Below are positions 1-45,878 of a stretch of DNA of 51,324 bases, piece by piece. Origin of the DNA: Escherichia phage WaterSpirit. The stretch lies in sequence record OR896833.1; one strand, written 5' to 3'. Below the pieces are notes generated by a model that saw only the letters and a program-made list of their open reading frames with translations, made no database searches and was not told the DNA's origin. The position numbers and the translations under genes were made by a program. The stretch's first letter is position 1; each line of letters starts with the position of its first letter.

Positions 1-1569
1 ATGCTTATTTGGGAAGATTTAACAGCGGCGCAGAAACGCGCCATTAAGGAAATGAGCGAGCATTCATTCGAAAAGATGATTCGAATCTGGTTCCAGCTAC
101 TCCAGGGGCAAAAGTTTTTAGGTAACTGGCATTTCAGCTACCTGTGCAGCGAAGTAGAGAAAATCATCAAAGGCGAATCACAAAACGTGATTTTCAATAT
201 AACCCCTGGCAGTGGTAAAACCGAGATATTTTCGATCCATATGTCACCTTATGCGTCACTAAAAAGCAAGAAGGTGCGAAATCTGAATCTTTCGTTTAGT
301 GACGGACTTGTGCAGCAGAATAGCAACAGGATTAAGGAGATTATTGGATCTCCGGAATGGCAGGAACTATGGCCTGGCAAACTGGCTAAGGCCAGCGCAA
401 AAGACCTGATAGTCACTGAGAAAGGGAAAGTTAAATTGCAGGTTAATTCCCGCTCTATTGGTGGACAGGTAACTGGCTTGCGCGGCGGCTACATGGATGA
501 TGGCTTTACTGGTATGCTGGTTCTTGATGATCCAGATAAACCAGACGACCAGTTATCAAAGGTTAAGCGCGAAGCCGGACACATGCGCCTGAAAAACACC
601 GTGCGATCACGTCGAATGAAAGACACCACGCCGATTGTAATGGTTCAGCAGCGGCTACACGTCAATGATTCGACTTGGTTTATGACGAATGGCGGTATGG
701 GCGGCATCAAGTTTAAGGTCGTGAGCATTCCGGCGCTCGTTACCGAGGATTATCGGGAAACGTTGCCTGACTGGTTGAAACCTGAGTTTGACCGCGACGT
801 GTTAAGCAGCAAGCCCGTGTATATTGATGGCGTGGCGCATTACTCCTTCTGGCCTGCAAAGGAAAGCGCGGAGGAATTGCTTGCCCTGCGGAATGCAGAT
901 CCTTACACGTTCGCAAGCCAGTACCAGCAGCATCCTATCGCGCTTGGTGGAAACGTGTTTAAGGTGGAGTGGTTCCAATATTACGGCGGCGGGGATAGGG
1001 CAACCGTTCAGAAGCCAGATCGCTTTGAATACACATTCATTACCGTTGATACCGCTCAGAAAACAGGAGAACTTAACGACTATTCTGTGATCTGCTATTG
1101 GGGGATGTATAAAAACCGCGTTTACTTCATTGATGGCGTTCGCGGAAAGTGGGAAGCGCCGGAACTGGAAACAAATTTTGTAGCGTTCGTTAATCAATGC
1201 TGGAAGCGAAACAAGGAGTGCGGAACGTTGCGCCGCATACACGTAGAAGACAAATCATCGGGAACTGGCCTGATCCAGAGTGCAGCTAAAAAGTTGCCAA
1301 TTGCCATCAATCCGGTGCAGCGCGACAAGGACAAGGTAACGCGAGCTATGGACGCAGCGCCAGTAATGAAGGCTGGACGTGTGGCATTACCTGAATCACA
1401 CCCCATGCTTGATGAGATACTTTCAGAGGTTGCGGCTTTTACGTTCGATGATAGCCATCCACATGATGATATTGTCGACACACTGGTTGATGCCGTTAAC
1501 CTTGAAATGAATATGGCAGATGATCCGGTTGCTCGCATGAAAAAACTGGCAGGTCTACGCAATAAATAG
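1..1569 (+). CDS. Terminase large subunit
   Basis: 522-aa ORF directly upstream of the portal gene; P-loop-like GSGKT motif; small-terminase-like gene ends at 51312, so the two are adjacent in the circular map. Family assignment by position and motif only. Confidence 0.8.
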   Translation: MLIWEDLTAAQKRAIKEMSEHSFEKMIRIWFQLLQGQKFLGNWHFSYLCSEVEKIIKGESQNVIFNITPGSGKTEIFSIHMSPYASLKSKKVRNLNLSFSDGLVQQNSNRIKEIIGSPEWQELWPGKLAKASAKDLIVTEKGKVKLQVNSRSIGGQVTGLRGGYMDDGFTGMLVLDDPDKPDDQLSKVKREAGHMRLKNTVRSRRMKDTTPIVMVQQRLHVNDSTWFMTNGGMGGIKFKVVSIPALVTEDYRETLPDWLKPEFDRDVLSSKPVYIDGVAHYSFWPAKESAEELLALRNADPYTFASQYQQHPIALGGNVFKVEWFQYYGGGDRATVQKPDRFEYTFITVDTAQKTGELNDYSVICYWGMYKNRVYFIDGVRGKWEAPELETNFVAFVNQCWKRNKECGTLRRIHVEDKSSGTGLIQSAAKKLPIAINPVQRDKDKVTRAMDAAPVMKAGRVALPESHPMLDEILSEVAAFTFDDSHPHDDIVDTLVDAVNLEMNMADDPVARMKKLAGLRNK

Positions 1570-2923: not shown

Positions 2924-3670
2924 ATGAAACGCGCCGTTAAACAATGGCGCTTTCCTGAAGCCAGCGAGCGGCAATTAAGCCGCTCAATTCAGGAGGCGAT
3001 CCGAGATCTGGTTGTGCTGATGCGCAGCCGGACAAAGGCAATGAAATTTGACGCAAGCGACGCAGAGATTAACGCGGCAGAGGATGAGATCAACAATCTG
3101 TCTACCGACTTAATCAGCGACATCGTTTCAAGTCTTCCGGCTATCGCACTGGCGATCTACAAATTCAATGCGCAGCAGTTTATTAACATCGCGCGCGCTA
3201 CTGGCGGCAAAGATAACGTAGCTGTCATTGTTCTGATCGCGGTCGGCACTAACGCACAAGAGGAATGGTATAGGACGTTATACGGTCAATGGATCGGACT
3301 TACTGAATCATCCCTGAGAAAGCTGTTTACTAACATCGTTTCTGACTGGTCAACAAATATACGCAGCGCCAACTTTCGAGGAAGCAGTGACAAACAGGTT
3401 AATGAACTGGCTGAGAAACGATTCGCCGTCTATAGTTCATGGGGAAAGACCAGGGCGGAAAATATGGTTGGCGCATGGAACAGTCGTCTAATGCGCCAGC
3501 GCCTTTATGATGCCGGAGTGTCTGCCTATTACTGGCACGGGATGTTAGACGAGCGCGAGCGATTGAAACACGTCCAGTGGGAAGGTAAACTGATTCGGCT
3601 GAGTGAAAACCATGTTTTCCCTGGCGAGGAATTTGGTTGTCGTTGTTGGGCTATTCCAAAATGGGATTAA
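2924..3670 (+). CDS. Head morphogenesis / minor head protein (Mu F / SPP1 gp7-like)
   Basis: 248 aa, start overlaps portal stop region (translational coupling); conserved position after portal. Confidence 0.5.
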   Translation: MKRAVKQWRFPEASERQLSRSIQEAIRDLVVLMRSRTKAMKFDASDAEINAAEDEINNLSTDLISDIVSSLPAIALAIYKFNAQQFINIARATGGKDNVAVIVLIAVGTNAQEEWYRTLYGQWIGLTESSLRKLFTNIVSDWSTNIRSANFRGSSDKQVNELAEKRFAVYSSWGKTRAENMVGAWNSRLMRQRLYDAGVSAYYWHGMLDERERLKHVQWEGKLIRLSENHVFPGEEFGCRCWAIPKWD

Positions 3671-42456: not shown

Positions 42457-42484
42457 TTGACACGCATGAAATAGCACTTATAAT
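42457..42484 (+). promoter_or_regulatory. Near-consensus sigma70 early promoter (TTGACA-16-TATAAT)
   Basis: Direct read; spacer contains AAATAGCAC; drives early-right gene block. Confidence 0.65.
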
Positions 42485-42978: not shown

Positions 42979-43242
42979 ATGAATAAGGCATTAATGGCGG
43001 TTTTTATGGCAACAGCATTCCTTACCGGATGTAATGGTGATGGTGCTTACGTCGATGCACAAATGGCTAACCCTGCCGATACTTACAACGTCAGAAAACT
43101 ATTTACAGTTGATGGTTGCGATGTGTACAGGTTCAGCGATAGCCGATACGTGTACTTTACCAACTGCCAGGGTAGCGCAAACTGGTCAACTAACGAAGGT
43201 AAGTCGGTTAGTCACTACCAGAACACAACAAACGTTAAATAG
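42979..43242 (+). CDS. Early lipoprotein (87 aa)
   Basis: RBS GAGGAGAAA; signal peptide with lipobox LTGC; two Cys pairs in mature part. Confidence 0.5.
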   Translation: MNKALMAVFMATAFLTGCNGDGAYVDAQMANPADTYNVRKLFTVDGCDVYRFSDSRYVYFTNCQGSANWSTNEGKSVSHYQNTTNVK

Positions 43243-43282
43243 CACTTTTTGTTAAAACTCAAAAACGATAACCAGTCATAAT
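43240..43282 (+). promoter_or_regulatory. 18-bp element (TAG = stop codon) + 19-nt spacer + CATAAT
   Basis: TAGCACTTTTTGTTAAAA 43240-43257; CATAAT 43277-43282. Confidence 0.45.
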
Positions 43283-43288
43283 ACACAC

Positions 43289-43484
43289 ATAGACGGGCGG
43301 CAAGGATTGCTGCGGGAGAGGAGCGACGCAGGGGCTTGATCGAAGTGTCAGGATTCCCAACCGTGAGGCCAGAACTATCACACTCGCCACCAGGCAGAAC
43401 GCTAGATAGGTCACTGAACTGAGGCTACCGACGAAGTGAAGCCCGTCACCAAAGATTAAACGGTTATTTATGTGAAAGGGGTTA
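43289..43484 (+). ncRNA. Candidate structured RNA / long structured 5' leader
   Basis: About 195 nt GC-rich non-coding segment between a promoter and the next RBS; long-range complementarity GACGGG (43292-43297) with CCCGTC (43442-43447) plus several local stems. Not verified by folding or homology. Confidence 0.25.
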
Positions 43485-43667
43485 ATGATGGATAAAATCA
43501 TCAAAATGAGCGAAGTCAAACCGGGAATGATGGTTAAGTTTGCTGGCAAATATCGCCTGGTGCTGGATAACTGCCGCAAAGAGAACATTCTCACCATTCG
43601 CGTTAACGGCAAGGCGCAGCTATTCGCCCCCAACGCAGATATTAATGTTGAGGTAAGAATTAAGTAA
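43485..43667 (+). CDS. Hypothetical protein (60 aa)
   Basis: RBS AAAGGGG upstream. Confidence 0.3.
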   Translation: MMDKIIKMSEVKPGMMVKFAGKYRLVLDNCRKENILTIRVNGKAQLFAPNADINVEVRIK

Positions 43668-43735
43668 TAATCCAGGCCGTAAAATCCGGCCTATAACCAG
43701 AAATAATTTTGTTAAACCAATCAGGAGAAAGCACC

Positions 43736-44626
43736 ATGTTAAAACTTGCTGACATTAAATTCCCGATCACCTTCCAATCAAAGGGAGTCGGACACTTCAT
43801 GTTTACCGATGAAAATACATGCACTAAGTTTAACGAATACGGAAAGCCTGATGTTTCATCAATGGAGATTGATCACTTCATTGATGCGCATAACAAGCAC
43901 TACAACTCGCTTAAAGACTACGGCTACGCAATGCCAGGATATACCAGCCTCCACTACAAGCCATATAAAGGCCAGGTGTTACCAGTGCGCTCGCCGGAAC
44001 GCGCAGAGATTCCGATGGTCGAGATGAAAACATGCGACTATAAAAAGCTGTGGTGCTTAAACGTGGACAATATCAAGTATCCGATCACGTTCCGAGCCAC
44101 TGGTGATAGCACGATAACATATACATCAAGAGATAACGGCGTTTATAGCGATGGTCAGAAATCAGAGCTAAAAGTTGATTTCTTTGTTAATGGTCACAAT
44201 AGATTCAACCCACACAATGAAAAAGATAAGGTGTACTACGTGGAAGACATTACAAAACACTTATTTGGAGAAACACCATTCGGCGGCGGGAAGACGTCAA
44301 TTCAGAAAATAATTGGCGAGGAGATCCACAAAGCGGCTAACGAAATAAAAGCGCCTGGAGGCTGGCGTATTGATAAGAGCGCCTTTGCCAATCAAGAAAT
44401 CTTAACGCAGGGAGCAATTGAAGACATGCCAGTTGCAGCCACTCTAAAAGGAGTCCAGCTTGATGATGGTTCATGGTATGAACTAACTGCGAAACCAAAG
44501 ACGATTGAGATTCATGATGATGTTGTTATCCTTCTGCTTCACTATGGCAGCGCAAAAAACCGGACTGTTGCGGGTGAGATCAGCATCAAGCGCGGAACGA
44601 TGGTTAAGTGGAAGGTGAAGATTTGA
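43736..44626 (+). CDS. Hypothetical protein with internal tandem domain duplication (296 aa)
   Basis: RBS CAGGAG 8 nt upstream of ATG 43736; repeated segment D(I/N)K(F/Y)PITF...F(I/V)(D/N)(A/G)HN at aa ~5-60 and ~120-180. Confidence 0.45.
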   Translation: MLKLADIKFPITFQSKGVGHFMFTDENTCTKFNEYGKPDVSSMEIDHFIDAHNKHYNSLKDYGYAMPGYTSLHYKPYKGQVLPVRSPERAEIPMVEMKTCDYKKLWCLNVDNIKYPITFRATGDSTITYTSRDNGVYSDGQKSELKVDFFVNGHNRFNPHNEKDKVYYVEDITKHLFGETPFGGGKTSIQKIIGEEIHKAANEIKAPGGWRIDKSAFANQEILTQGAIEDMPVAATLKGVQLDDGSWYELTAKPKTIEIHDDVVILLLHYGSAKNRTVAGEISIKRGTMVKWKVKI

Positions 44627-44702
44627 GTTTGCTCACTGCGGCGACGTGCGCCGCATGGATCGGATTGTTTGTCTACCTGTTTAGCTTTTATTGAGGTGAG
44701 AG

Positions 44703-44855
44703 ATGGCTACCTGGATTTTACTGATTCTTATGATTGATGGCGGCGTTGACCATATTGAAATGAATAGCCAGCAATCTTGCATTGAGGCACGAGAGCAGAT
44801 CAAGAACAACAACAGGTTTTATGCTTACACTCACACGCTATGTATTAAGAAATAG
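44703..44855 (+). CDS. Small hydrophobic protein (50 aa), below ORF-track cutoff
   Basis: Strong RBS GAGGTGAGAG; N-terminal TMD (WILLILMIDGG); stop TAG inside the conserved element. Confidence 0.3.
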   Translation: MATWILLILMIDGGVDHIEMNSQQSCIEAREQIKNNNRFYAYTHTLCIKK

Positions 44856-44894
44856 CACGAATTGTTAAAACTCAAATGTGGGGCCAGGTATAAT
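44853..44894 (+). promoter_or_regulatory. 18-bp element, GAATTG variant + 18-nt spacer + TATAAT
   Basis: TAGCACGAATTGTTAAAA 44853-44870; TATAAT 44889-44894 within GGCC/GGCC hairpin loop. Confidence 0.45.
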
Positions 44895-44924
44895 GGCCTC
44901 ACTTTCAACGAAGGAGATAAAACG

Positions 44925-45143
44925 ATGTACATTAACAAGAAGATGAAATGCGTTTCCGTTGGCTATGGTTGCGCTGGCATGTTTAAGCCTGGCGAAATCT
45001 ATACGGCGCAAAAACTGAAATCATCAACCGGATCTTTTTACGTGAGCAATAGCAAGGGGCATCGCATGTTTCTTAACGGTGGTGAAGGAACGAAGGTTAT
45101 GGCGCACGCTATGGTAATTGCTGAATTTGAGGAAGTGAAATAA
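44925..45143 (+). CDS. Hypothetical protein (72 aa)
   Basis: RBS AAGGAGA upstream of ATG 44925. Confidence 0.35.
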   Translation: MYINKKMKCVSVGYGCAGMFKPGEIYTAQKLKSSTGSFYVSNSKGHRMFLNGGEGTKVMAHAMVIAEFEEVK

Positions 45144-45325
45144 TGGATGATTTTACTCGGATTGTTCTCTGTTGGATTTTGTTTCTTTTTGCCTGGCTTA
45201 TCTACTGTGCGAAATATAAATTCAGACTGAGCTATGATAATTCATTTGTTATGGCTTGCTTCAGTGTTCCAGGATGGATCATTTTACTTTTAGCTACTGC
45301 TGAATACATTCATAAAACATTTTAA
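45143..45325 (+). CDS. Small membrane protein (60 aa)
   Basis: Two hydrophobic segments. Confidence 0.3.
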   Translation: MDDFTRIVLCWILFLFAWLIYCAKYKFRLSYDNSFVMACFSVPGWIILLLATAEYIHKTF

Positions 45326-45335
45326 GGATTAATAT

Positions 45336-45878
45336 ATGAAAAAATACACTTTCGAACTATGGGGCAAGAAATACGAATTAATGACCAGCAAGCCGATTGT
45401 TATCGTTGATCTTGATGGCACGCTATCGGACGGATCGCATCGTTTGCACTTGTTGCCAACGGAAAACTTGCACCTTACTGAATCGTGGAGCGAATTTAAC
45501 AGGGCAGCCGCCGGAGATTCACCTATTAAGAGCACGATCGCGGTTATTAACGGTTTATGGGTATCAGGATTCGCCGTCATTATCCTGACCGGACGCAGCG
45601 ACGAAGTTCGCTATGAAACATGCAAATGGTTGAATGAGAACGGAGTGAAGTTTGACGAAATCATCATGCGCCGCCAGGAGGATAACCGAAAGGATACGGT
45701 TATTAAAGAAGAAGCCTTGCGCGCTATTGGCCTGGACAATATCGTTTGCGCCTTTGACGATTCCGCGAACGTGGTGAAGCACTTCCGTAACCTGGGGATC
45801 ACAACCTATCAGGTAACGGAATATGACAAGCCACACGCTCACCTGCAATCTCACGGCGTGGAGGAGTTGCAGAAATGA
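45336..45878 (+). CDS. HAD-superfamily phosphatase (polynucleotide 3'-phosphatase-like)
   Basis: 180 aa; HAD motif I DLDGTLSDG near N-terminus; small size typical of phage Pnk phosphatase domains. Confidence 0.5.
   Translation: MKKYTFELWGKKYELMTSKPIVIVDLDGTLSDGSHRLHLLPTENLHLTESWSEFNRAAAGDSPIKSTIAVINGLWVSGFAVIILTGRSDEVRYETCKWLNENGVKFDEIIMRRQEDNRKDTVIKEEALRAIGLDNIVCAFDDSANVVKHFRNLGITTYQVTEYDKPHAHLQSHGVEELQK

What the first reader, a model, noticed from the sequence alone, without database searches (positions are those of the whole stretch)
43736..44626. Early protein built from two tandem copies of an uncharacterised domain
The 296-aa product contains an internal duplication, DIKFPITFQSKG...EIDHFIDAHNKHYN versus NIKYPITFRATG...KVDFFVNGHNRFNP, also visible at the DNA level (about 43750-43790 versus 44088-44125). 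I could not assign a family from sequence alone. Its early expression and accessory position make a host-takeover or anti-defence role plausible.
Basis: partly seen in the sequence, partly recalled or inferred. Interest (0 to 1): 0.5.

Follow-up and report, generated by a model that had tools for sequence, protein, structure and literature searches.

The report
Orphan two-repeat early phage protein
A T1-like phage gene encodes a protein with two diverged copies of a small, undescribed domain followed by an SH3-like barrel; the repeat is real and the family stays in one variable slot of T1-like genomes, but no function has been tested.

Summary
The window is a nearly complete T1-like (Drexlerviridae) phage genome. 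The ORF at 43736-44626 is a real, constrained gene (dN/dS 0.14-0.32).

The internal duplication is confirmed at protein level. Residues 1-66 and 108-172 each match, end to end, a profile built only from single-copy relatives (3e-17 and 1e-26). The claimed DNA-level repeat is not above chance.

The architecture is N1, conserved disordered linker, N2, variable linker, C. Phage T1 has one N copy and one metagenomic relative has three. N and C also occur alone or fused to other unknown modules, always in the same operon slot upstream of the PNK phosphatase gene.

Only 57 clusters match among 1.84 billion representatives.

The best reading is a non-enzymatic modular binding protein, with a conserved anchor and variable recognition modules, transcribed from a perfect sigma-70 promoter. 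An anti-defence or takeover role is plausible but untested.

The parts
42457..42484 (+). Perfect consensus sigma-70 promoter (TTGACA, 16 nt, TATAAT) at the head of the rightward operon that contains the gene
   Evidence: (12 of 12 matches) and the sequence. Its function is inferred, not shown.
43723..43728 (+). Ribosome-binding site AGGAGA, 7 nt upstream of the ATG
   Evidence: Sequence.
43736..44626 (+). Coding sequence, 296 aa plus stop. Soluble, pI 7.7, no transmembrane segment.
   Evidence: dN/dS is 0.14-0.32 in all segments.
43736..43981 (+). N1, the first copy of the repeated domain (aa 1-82). This type carries HNKHYNSLKDYGYAMPGY and an extra strand.
   Evidence: Single-copy HMM hit on aa 1-66, 3e-17. 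pLDDT about 80-90. Forms its own clade. dN/dS 0.25.
43982..44053 (+). Linker L1 (aa 83-106). Predicted disordered, rich in Pro, Glu and Lys, but conserved.
   Evidence: pLDDT below 50 for aa 84-103. dN/dS 0.14.
44054..44269 (+). N2, the second copy of the repeated domain (aa 107-178). This type carries HNxxNPxN....YY, as in single-copy relatives.
44270..44392 (+). Linker L2 (aa 179-219). Low-confidence helix; replaced by unrelated sequence in close relatives such as BEBK14.
   Evidence: pLDDT below 50 for aa 180-218. Alignment. dN/dS 0.32 with saturated dS.
44393..44623 (+). C domain (aa 220-296). All-beta SH3-like barrel and the most conserved part of the family.
44703..44855 (+). Downstream 50-aa gene (phrog_5579). 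A frequent immediate neighbour and possible partner.
   Evidence: Follows the target in 17 of 26 related loci at 46-100% identity. In T1 its start overlaps the target's stop at 3389. The functional link is inferred only.

Best explanation
The gene encodes a soluble, non-enzymatic, modular binding protein of the T1-like early and accessory gene arm.

**Proposed mechanism (inferred).** The highly conserved C-terminal SH3-like barrel anchors the protein to one conserved partner, either a host or a phage macromolecule. The N-terminal approximately 65-aa modules are fast-diverging recognition units. They are joined by flexible linkers, and their number (0-3) and type set the valency or specificity. 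Here one N1-type and one N2-type module are present. The protein would act stoichiometrically by bridging, sequestering or blocking its targets early in infection, for host manipulation or counter-defence.

**Shown.** The gene is real and constrained. There are three folded domains with disordered linkers. Domains are duplicated and shuffled at one syntenic locus. There is no similarity to any enzyme or characterised family.

**Inferred.** Timing of expression, a binding mode of action, and the anchor/recognition division of labour.
For: - The gene is real: dN/dS is 0.14-0.32 in every segment, and there is a good RBS with a conserved MLKL start.
- There are three confident small domains separated by linkers with pLDDT below 50; pTM of 0.33 indicates no fixed packing between domains.
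- No catalytic family or motif was found in Pfam, NCBIfam, PHROG function labels, PADLOC or PDB sequences.
- The domains are only about 65-77 aa. The C domain has an SH3-like barrel fold, which is typically a binding module.
- Conservation is asymmetric. The C domain is 69-73% identical between subfamilies, where the large terminase is about 64%, while the N domain is only 29-42% identical.
- N copy number is 1 (T1), 2 (window) or 3 (P0013), with independent double-N proteins in other lineages.
- N and C occur alone or fused to other unknown modules, always in the same operon slot of roughly 50-kb T1-like contigs.
- In the two loci examined where N is fused to a foreign module, a stand-alone C-domain gene lies in the same operon. 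This argues that the two domains work together but are separable.
- A perfect sigma-70 promoter heads the operon.
Against: - There is no experimental or comparative link to any partner, host pathway or defence system.
- 'Binding protein' is partly an argument from the absence of enzyme signatures.
- The protein is near neutral (pI 7.7), which gives no hint of a nucleic-acid mimic or binder.
- Some phages carry a C domain with no detectable N domain in the stretch examined (Motto and L029), so C does not always need N.
- In phage haarsle, N1 carries an in-frame TGA, so N1 may be dispensable.
- Early timing is inferred from position and promoter only.
Confidence: 0.4

Rival explanations
1. The protein is a nucleic-acid- or ribosome-binding regulator. 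Its small barrels, which resemble EF-P domain I, KOW, Sm and Tudor domains, would bind RNA, DNA or the translation/transcription machinery to control phage or host gene expression.
Confidence: 0.2
2. This is the first reader's specific idea: a dedicated inhibitor, or a decoy or trigger, of a bacterial anti-phage defence system. Duplication of the N module would broaden the range of defence proteins recognised.
For: - The distribution is patchy: 228 records against 850 with a related terminase.
- The locus shows module shuffling and N-domain divergence.
- The gene sits in a strongly promoted arm of small genes.
- Precedent: Gp54 of the T1-like phage Bas11 is a small, non-essential SH3-like beta-barrel protein that binds and triggers CapRel, and its authors suggest it may inhibit another defence (PMC11578894).
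- Drexlerviridae differ widely and inexplicably in sensitivity to immunity systems (PMC8594841).
Against: No homology was found to any characterised anti-defence protein. dN/dS is well below 1 everywhere, with no sign of positive selection at this crude level. The very high conservation of the C domain across subfamilies is atypical for a protein in an arms race. There are no phenotype data.
Confidence: 0.15
3. The duplication has no functional meaning. The working unit is one N plus C, as in T1, and N1 is a tolerated passenger acquired by recombination that is decaying in some lineages.
For: - The phrog_7116 profile and the T1 prototype equal N2 + C.
- Phage haarsle has an in-frame TGA at codon 52 of N1, and its gene is annotated from an internal start as the 196-aa P0214.
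- JLBYU16 matches only aa 107-296.
- N1 evolves faster than N2 (dN/dS 0.25 against 0.14).
Against: N1 is still under purifying selection and is intact in at least 166 retrieved proteins. The disordered L1 linker attached to it is as constrained as N2 (0.14). N1-type modules also exist as the only N domain of other proteins such as P0228. Multi-N architectures arose more than once (P0231, P0234, P0242, P0013).
Confidence: 0.1
4. The protein is a sponge for a small-molecule immune signal. Conserved His, Asn and aromatic residues of the N module (HNxxNPxN....YY) would form a ligand pocket, and tandem copies would raise capacity.
For: The only evidence is the pattern of conserved polar and aromatic residues after the helix and the small size of the modules.
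Against: There is no similarity to the known sponges that sequester immune-signalling nucleotides (Tad1, Tad2, Acb2), judging by the absence of any Pfam, PDB or fold match. The motif differs between N1 and N2. Oligomeric state is unknown.
Confidence: 0.05

Closest known systems
PHROG 7116 (function unknown), prototype phage T1 AZS32503.1 (161 aa; MK213796 2904..3389)
   Same: True homologues. The profile aligns end to end with aa 107-295 (E = 7.8e-80). The genomic slot is the same, upstream of the PNK phosphatase gene. The C domain is 73% identical.
   Different: The prototype has one N module. The window protein adds an N1-type module and a conserved 24-aa linker, and has a longer, unrelated N2-C linker. 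No member has a known function.
EF-P domain I, eIF5A N-domain and KOW-type 'translation protein SH3-like' barrels
   Different: There is no sequence homology (hhalign probability 0.2%; no PDB profile hit). EF-P domains II and III are absent. The resemblance is shared with Sm, Tudor, SH3b and FeoA barrels, so it says little about function.
Gp54 of phage Bas11 (66 aa, CapRel-SJ46 trigger; PMC11578894)
   Same: A small, non-enzymatic beta-barrel protein of unknown function, distantly SH3-like, from a T1-like phage, which acts by direct protein binding.
Tandem Tudor-like and Sm-like small barrels (for example Spindlin)
Stand-alone SH3 protein of the Drexlerviridae lysis module (PMC13164509)
   Same: Another SH3-type small protein recently noted in T1-like phages.
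   Different: That protein is recognised by InterPro and Foldseek as SH3 and sits next to the lysis genes. The C domain here has no Pfam hit and sits in the early arm.

Membership tests
PHROG 7116 (uncharacterised T1-like phage protein) | Significant full-length match to the family profile | tested here: met
   E = 7.8e-80, 267.9 bits. aa 107-295 cover profile positions 1-173 of 173, and a second stretch matches N1.
PHROG 7116 (uncharacterised T1-like phage protein) | Same genomic slot as other members: rightward small-gene operon upstream of the PNK phosphatase and dNMP kinase genes | tested here: met
   Synteny in 26 related loci and in distant metagenomic members.
SH3-like small beta-barrel fold (C domain) | Structural superposition with known SH3-like, KOW or Sm barrels | tested here: met
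EF-P / eIF5A family | Sequence homology to EF-P domain I | tested here: not met
   hhalign of the C-domain profile (A4) against E. coli EF-P gives probability 0.2%. HMM searches against PDB sequences find no EF-P hit.
EF-P / eIF5A family | Three-domain tRNA-shaped architecture with OB-fold domains II and III | tested here: not met
   Only one barrel of this type is present. The rest of the protein is the N modules and disordered linkers.
Tudor / Sm-like barrels (N domain) | Significant structural match | tested here: inconclusive
Any Pfam, NCBIfam or PADLOC family | Profile match at or near the curated threshold | tested here: not met
   No hits for the window protein at E up to 1-10. None of 49 diverse family members hits a Pfam family below E = 0.015.
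Characterised anti-defence proteins | Homology to a protein with demonstrated anti-defence activity | tested here: inconclusive
Characterised anti-defence proteins | Protection of phage against a defined defence system | not testable with these tools
   Requires plating assays.
Gp54-Bas11-like CapRel triggers | Sequence or close structural similarity to Gp54 of Bas11 | tested here: not met

The most novel reading that the evidence does not exclude
The approximately 65-aa N module is a new protein fold and family. Together with the SH3-like C module it would define a new class of 'beads-on-a-string' phage effectors confined to one recombination-prone slot of T1-like genomes. The number and type of N modules would set which host factors or immune proteins are captured, and the conserved C barrel would deliver them to, or block, a conserved cellular machine.
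Probability: 0.2. Interest if true: 0.65.

Novelty: new member of a known kind. Interest (0 to 1): 0.35.

Why it matters
T1-like phages are common laboratory, industrial and therapeutic coliphages, and about half of their genes have no known function.

This analysis turns one 'hypothetical protein' into a defined object:
- two autonomous domains with clear boundaries;
- a confident structural model of a module with no solved relative;
- a locus where the modules are duplicated, split and re-fused.

That makes concrete experiments possible, including domain-wise pull-downs, deletions and swaps between phages that differ in sensitivity to host immunity. If the anchor-plus-recognition model holds, the family would be a compact natural system for studying how phages retarget a binding protein by module duplication. 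If no phenotype is found, it remains an ordinary orphan gene.

Tried and rejected
- **DNA-level repeat.** Rejected. The best match is 13 nt, 365 of 1000 codon shuffles reach it, and no repeat lies in the N1/N2 register.
- **Known family by sequence.** Pfam, NCBIfam, PADLOC and PDB chain sequences were searched with the whole-family, N-domain and C-domain profiles. Nothing was found; the cytochrome c3 hits at E about 0.3 are chance.
- **Foldseek of the full model against the PDB.** No hit below E = 0.1.
- **MazG-like guess for the partner domain of P0252.** No PDB or Pfam support, only unknown PHROGs.
- **Partner domains of fusion proteins as function clues.** All fall in PHROGs of unknown function: 24212, 2831, 21078, 15124 and 1972.
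- **Hairpin after the stop codon (44636-44656) as a terminator.** Folding z-score is -1.0, there is no T-run, and the terminator scan did not call it.
- **Third protein search with a diverse alignment.** It returned only close double-repeat proteins in the listed top 120, so it added no distant members.
- **Literature.** No paper on this family or on T1-like early transcription was found in the searchable library. The Silas et al. accessory-gene screen contains none of the T1-like or Drexlerviridae search terms tried. RAZR trigger Gp77 is an Erf-like recombinase and is unrelated.
- **Membrane or secreted protein.** Rejected; the maximum 19-residue hydropathy is 0.76.

Full report
**What the window is.** The 51.3-kb window is essentially a complete genome of a T1-like siphovirus of the family Drexlerviridae.
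- The 2.5 kb around the finding matches 258 phage records. The best is Escherichia phage BEBK14 (Tempevirinae, Warwickvirus) at 95% identity over 84% of the query.
- The large terminase at 1-1569 is 100% identical in protein to that of phage Jahat_MG145. The region around the finding matches Jahat over only 65% of its length at 92% identity, so the small-gene arm is mosaic.

**The observation.** The ORF is as described: ATG at 43736, AGGAGA 7 nt upstream, stop at 44624-44626, 296 aa. The internal duplication is real at the protein level.
- Local alignment of aa 2-54 with 108-157 scores 75, against 28.2 +/- 4.6 (maximum 50) for 2000 shuffles.
- BLASTP of the two halves gives E = 2e-07.
- The strongest test used a profile built only from 23 relatives that carry a single copy. 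It matches the window protein twice over its whole length, at aa 1-66 (3e-17) and aa 108-172 (1e-26).
The best DNA match is the 13-nt stretch encoding the shared PITF motif, reached by 365 of 1000 codon shuffles. The repeat finder finds nothing in that register.
- The two copies are 29% identical.

**It is a real gene.** Eight double-repeat sequences from GenBank and IMG/VR loci were compared. Pooled Nei-Gojobori dN/dS values are 0.25 (N1), 0.14 (linker L1), 0.14 (N2), 0.32 (linker L2, with saturated dS) and 0.19 (C). The product is soluble with no hydrophobic segment, and has a pI of 7.7.

**Anatomy.** AlphaFold2 with a 28-sequence alignment gives three confident domains.
- N1 is aa 1-80, N2 is about aa 105-178, and C is aa 220-296.
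- The segments between them, aa 84-103 and 180-218, have pLDDT below 50. pTM is 0.33, so there is no fixed arrangement between domains.
- Both N copies show the same order of short strands followed by one helix. That helix ends in the conserved HN motif.
- The C domain is a seven-stranded all-beta unit.
The alignment has invariant E229, P232, A235, T236, K238, G239 and V240, plus a nearly invariant ISIKRGT.

**Family and distribution.** There is no Pfam, NCBIfam or PADLOC match. The only named family is PHROG 7116, of unknown function. Its 173-position profile equals N2 + C (aa 107-295, E = 7.8e-80).
- tblastn against about 50,700 phage records finds the family in 228 records, all T1-like phages. 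Their listed hosts are mainly Escherichia, Shigella, Salmonella and Citrobacter.
- A related large terminase occurs in 850 records. Of these, 395 are Klebsiella phages, and none of them has a detectable copy.
- Among 5.8 billion clustered proteins there are 321-401 hits, all unnamed or 'hypothetical'. The closest is 93% identical.
- Among 1.84 billion 50%-identity representatives, a family profile finds only 57 clusters.

**Modularity.**
- Phage T1 (161 aa) and JMPW1 (168 aa) have one N module plus C.
- The window and at least 166 of the retrieved proteins have two N modules. One metagenomic protein, P0013 (374 aa), has three.
- Other lineages hold independently arranged double-N proteins: P0231, P0234, P0242, P0243 and P0258.
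- The C domain occurs alone (for example Motto_66, 81 aa) or behind unrelated N-terminal parts (P0255, P0264, P0265, P0268).
- The N domain occurs alone (P0247, P0250) or in front of unrelated C-terminal parts (P0248, P0252, P0254, P0267).
- All partner parts fall in PHROGs of unknown function, and none has a Pfam match.
- Every distant variant whose contig was long enough to judge sits on a T1-like contig (three of about 50 kb, one of 26.5 kb). Each lies in the same rightward small-gene operon between the divergent control region and the terminase genes, and in two of the four a PNK phosphatase gene lies downstream.
- In the two loci where N is fused to a foreign module (L028, L031), a separate C-domain gene lies in the same operon. 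This Rosetta-stone pattern suggests that N and C cooperate but are separable.
- In a neighbour-joining tree, the N1 copies and the N2 copies form separate clades, with single-copy forms between them. The extra copy of P0013 groups with an N2 variant. The tree is weakly resolved. It fits an old duplication or a fusion of two already diverged paralogues better than a recent in-place duplication.

**Structure comparisons.**
- The full model has no Foldseek match in the PDB below E = 0.1.
- hhalign of a 34-sequence C-domain profile against E. coli EF-P gives probability 0.2%. Profile searches of PDB sequences find nothing.
- The N-domain profile also finds nothing among PDB sequences.
- On present evidence the repeated module has no characterised relative by sequence or by structure.

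**Conservation asymmetry.** Between the window (Tempevirinae-like) and T1 or JMPW1 (Tunavirinae), the C domain is 73% and 69% identical. The N modules are 29-42% identical. The large terminase is about 64% identical to T1-type phages. The disordered L1 linker is as constrained as N2 (dN/dS 0.14), which suggests a functional linear motif. L2 is replaced wholesale in close relatives such as BEBK14.

**Context and expression.**
- A 12/12 consensus sigma-70 promoter (TTGACA, 16 nt, TATAAT) lies at 42457-42484. It is followed by an RBS and the first gene of the rightward operon.
- The target is the fourth gene of that operon. Downstream are a 50-aa gene, several small genes, the PNK phosphatase gene and the dNMP kinase gene.
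- The 50-aa gene (phrog_5579) directly follows the target in 17 of 26 related loci, and overlaps its stop codon in T1. It is a candidate partner, on weak evidence.
- Early expression is therefore plausible but inferred. I found no transcript data for T1-like phages.

**Most likely mechanism.** I propose a non-enzymatic modular binding protein.
- The conserved SH3-like C barrel would anchor it to a conserved partner.
- The rapidly diverging N modules, on flexible linkers, would provide variable recognition. Duplication would add valency or a second specificity.
- The purpose would be host manipulation or counter-defence early in infection.
- I hold this at about 0.4.
- The shown steps are the domain anatomy, the constraint, the modular shuffling and the absence of enzyme signatures. 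The binding mode, the division of labour and the timing are inferred.

**Rivals.**
- A nucleic-acid or ribosome-binding regulator, suggested by the kinds of barrels matched (0.2).
The analogy is Gp54 of Bas11, a small SH3-like protein of a T1-like phage that binds CapRel (PMC11578894). Another point in its favour is the unexplained variation of Drexlerviridae in sensitivity to immunity systems (PMC8594841).
- A functionally neutral extra N1 module (0.1). Support comes from the in-frame TGA in N1 of phage haarsle and from relatives that match only aa 107-296.
- A small-molecule sponge (0.05).

**Novelty and score.**
- The window protein is a new member (at most 93% identical to anything known) of a family that is catalogued but wholly uncharacterised. 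The double-repeat architecture itself is already common in databases.
- The family as a whole lies far from anything characterised. Its repeated module may be a new fold.
- Nothing yet shows an unusual mechanism, so interest is moderate at 0.35.
- The most novel reading not excluded is a new class of beads-on-a-string phage effectors with a new recognition fold. I give that about 0.2 probability.

Noticed in passing
window 44925-45143 (+), 72-aa ORF two genes downstream: Residues 19-56 match every blade of the designed 'Cake' beta-propeller proteins in the PDB (summed E = 2e-14 for Cake9). The ORF also has a weak PHROG 9122 hit. It may be a single propeller-blade-like unit that oligomerises.
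   Followed up: partly
L011 (Escherichia phage haarsle, IMGVR_UViG_2974510867_000001) 1758-2639, codon 52: There is an in-frame TGA inside the N1 module of the haarsle homologue. GenBank annotates only a 196-aa product from an internal start (P0214). This is either decay of N1 or a sequencing error.
   Followed up: partly
P0013 (374 aa, metagenomic; alignment A1 columns 87-160): This relative carries three N modules. The inserted middle copy groups with the N2-type copy of P0207, which indicates further module gain by recombination.
   Followed up: partly
window 42457-42484 (+): A perfect 12/12 sigma-70 consensus promoter (TTGACA, 16 nt, TATAAT) heads the rightward small-gene operon. It faces a leftward gene block across a roughly 400-bp gap that contains only short, presumably spurious ORFs.
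   Followed up: partly
window 42979-43242 (+), 87-aa ORF: The N-terminus MNKALMAVFMATAFLTGC looks like a lipoprotein signal with a lipobox cysteine. It matches PHROG 6360 and 902 (unknown function) and is annotated in one relative as DUF4884. This early lipoprotein is a candidate surface or exclusion factor.
   Followed up: no
window 44703-44855 (+), 50-aa ORF (phrog_5579): A short protein with a hydrophobic N-terminus directly follows the target gene in 17 of 26 related loci and overlaps its stop codon in T1. It may be a functional partner.
   Followed up: partly
L002 (phage T1 MK213796) 2344-2832, and L003 (phage Motto) 2274-2492: By eye, the gene just upstream of the T1 homologue also contains an internal duplication (KIKLLSNGGY... 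and KVRLLSNGGY...). Motto_65 looks like a single copy of that unit. Tandem small-domain duplication may be a general habit of this gene arm.
   Followed up: no
window 1-1569 compared with 43000-45500: The large terminase is 100% identical in protein to phage Jahat_MG145, but the region around the finding matches Jahat over only 65% of its length at 92% identity. This indicates recent recombination in the small-gene arm.
   Followed up: no
phage collection hits: About 12-21 records named 'Campylobacter phage' (host C. jejuni) and one 'Pseudomonas phage Motto' are typical T1-like coliphage genomes carrying this family. The host labels look doubtful.
   Followed up: no
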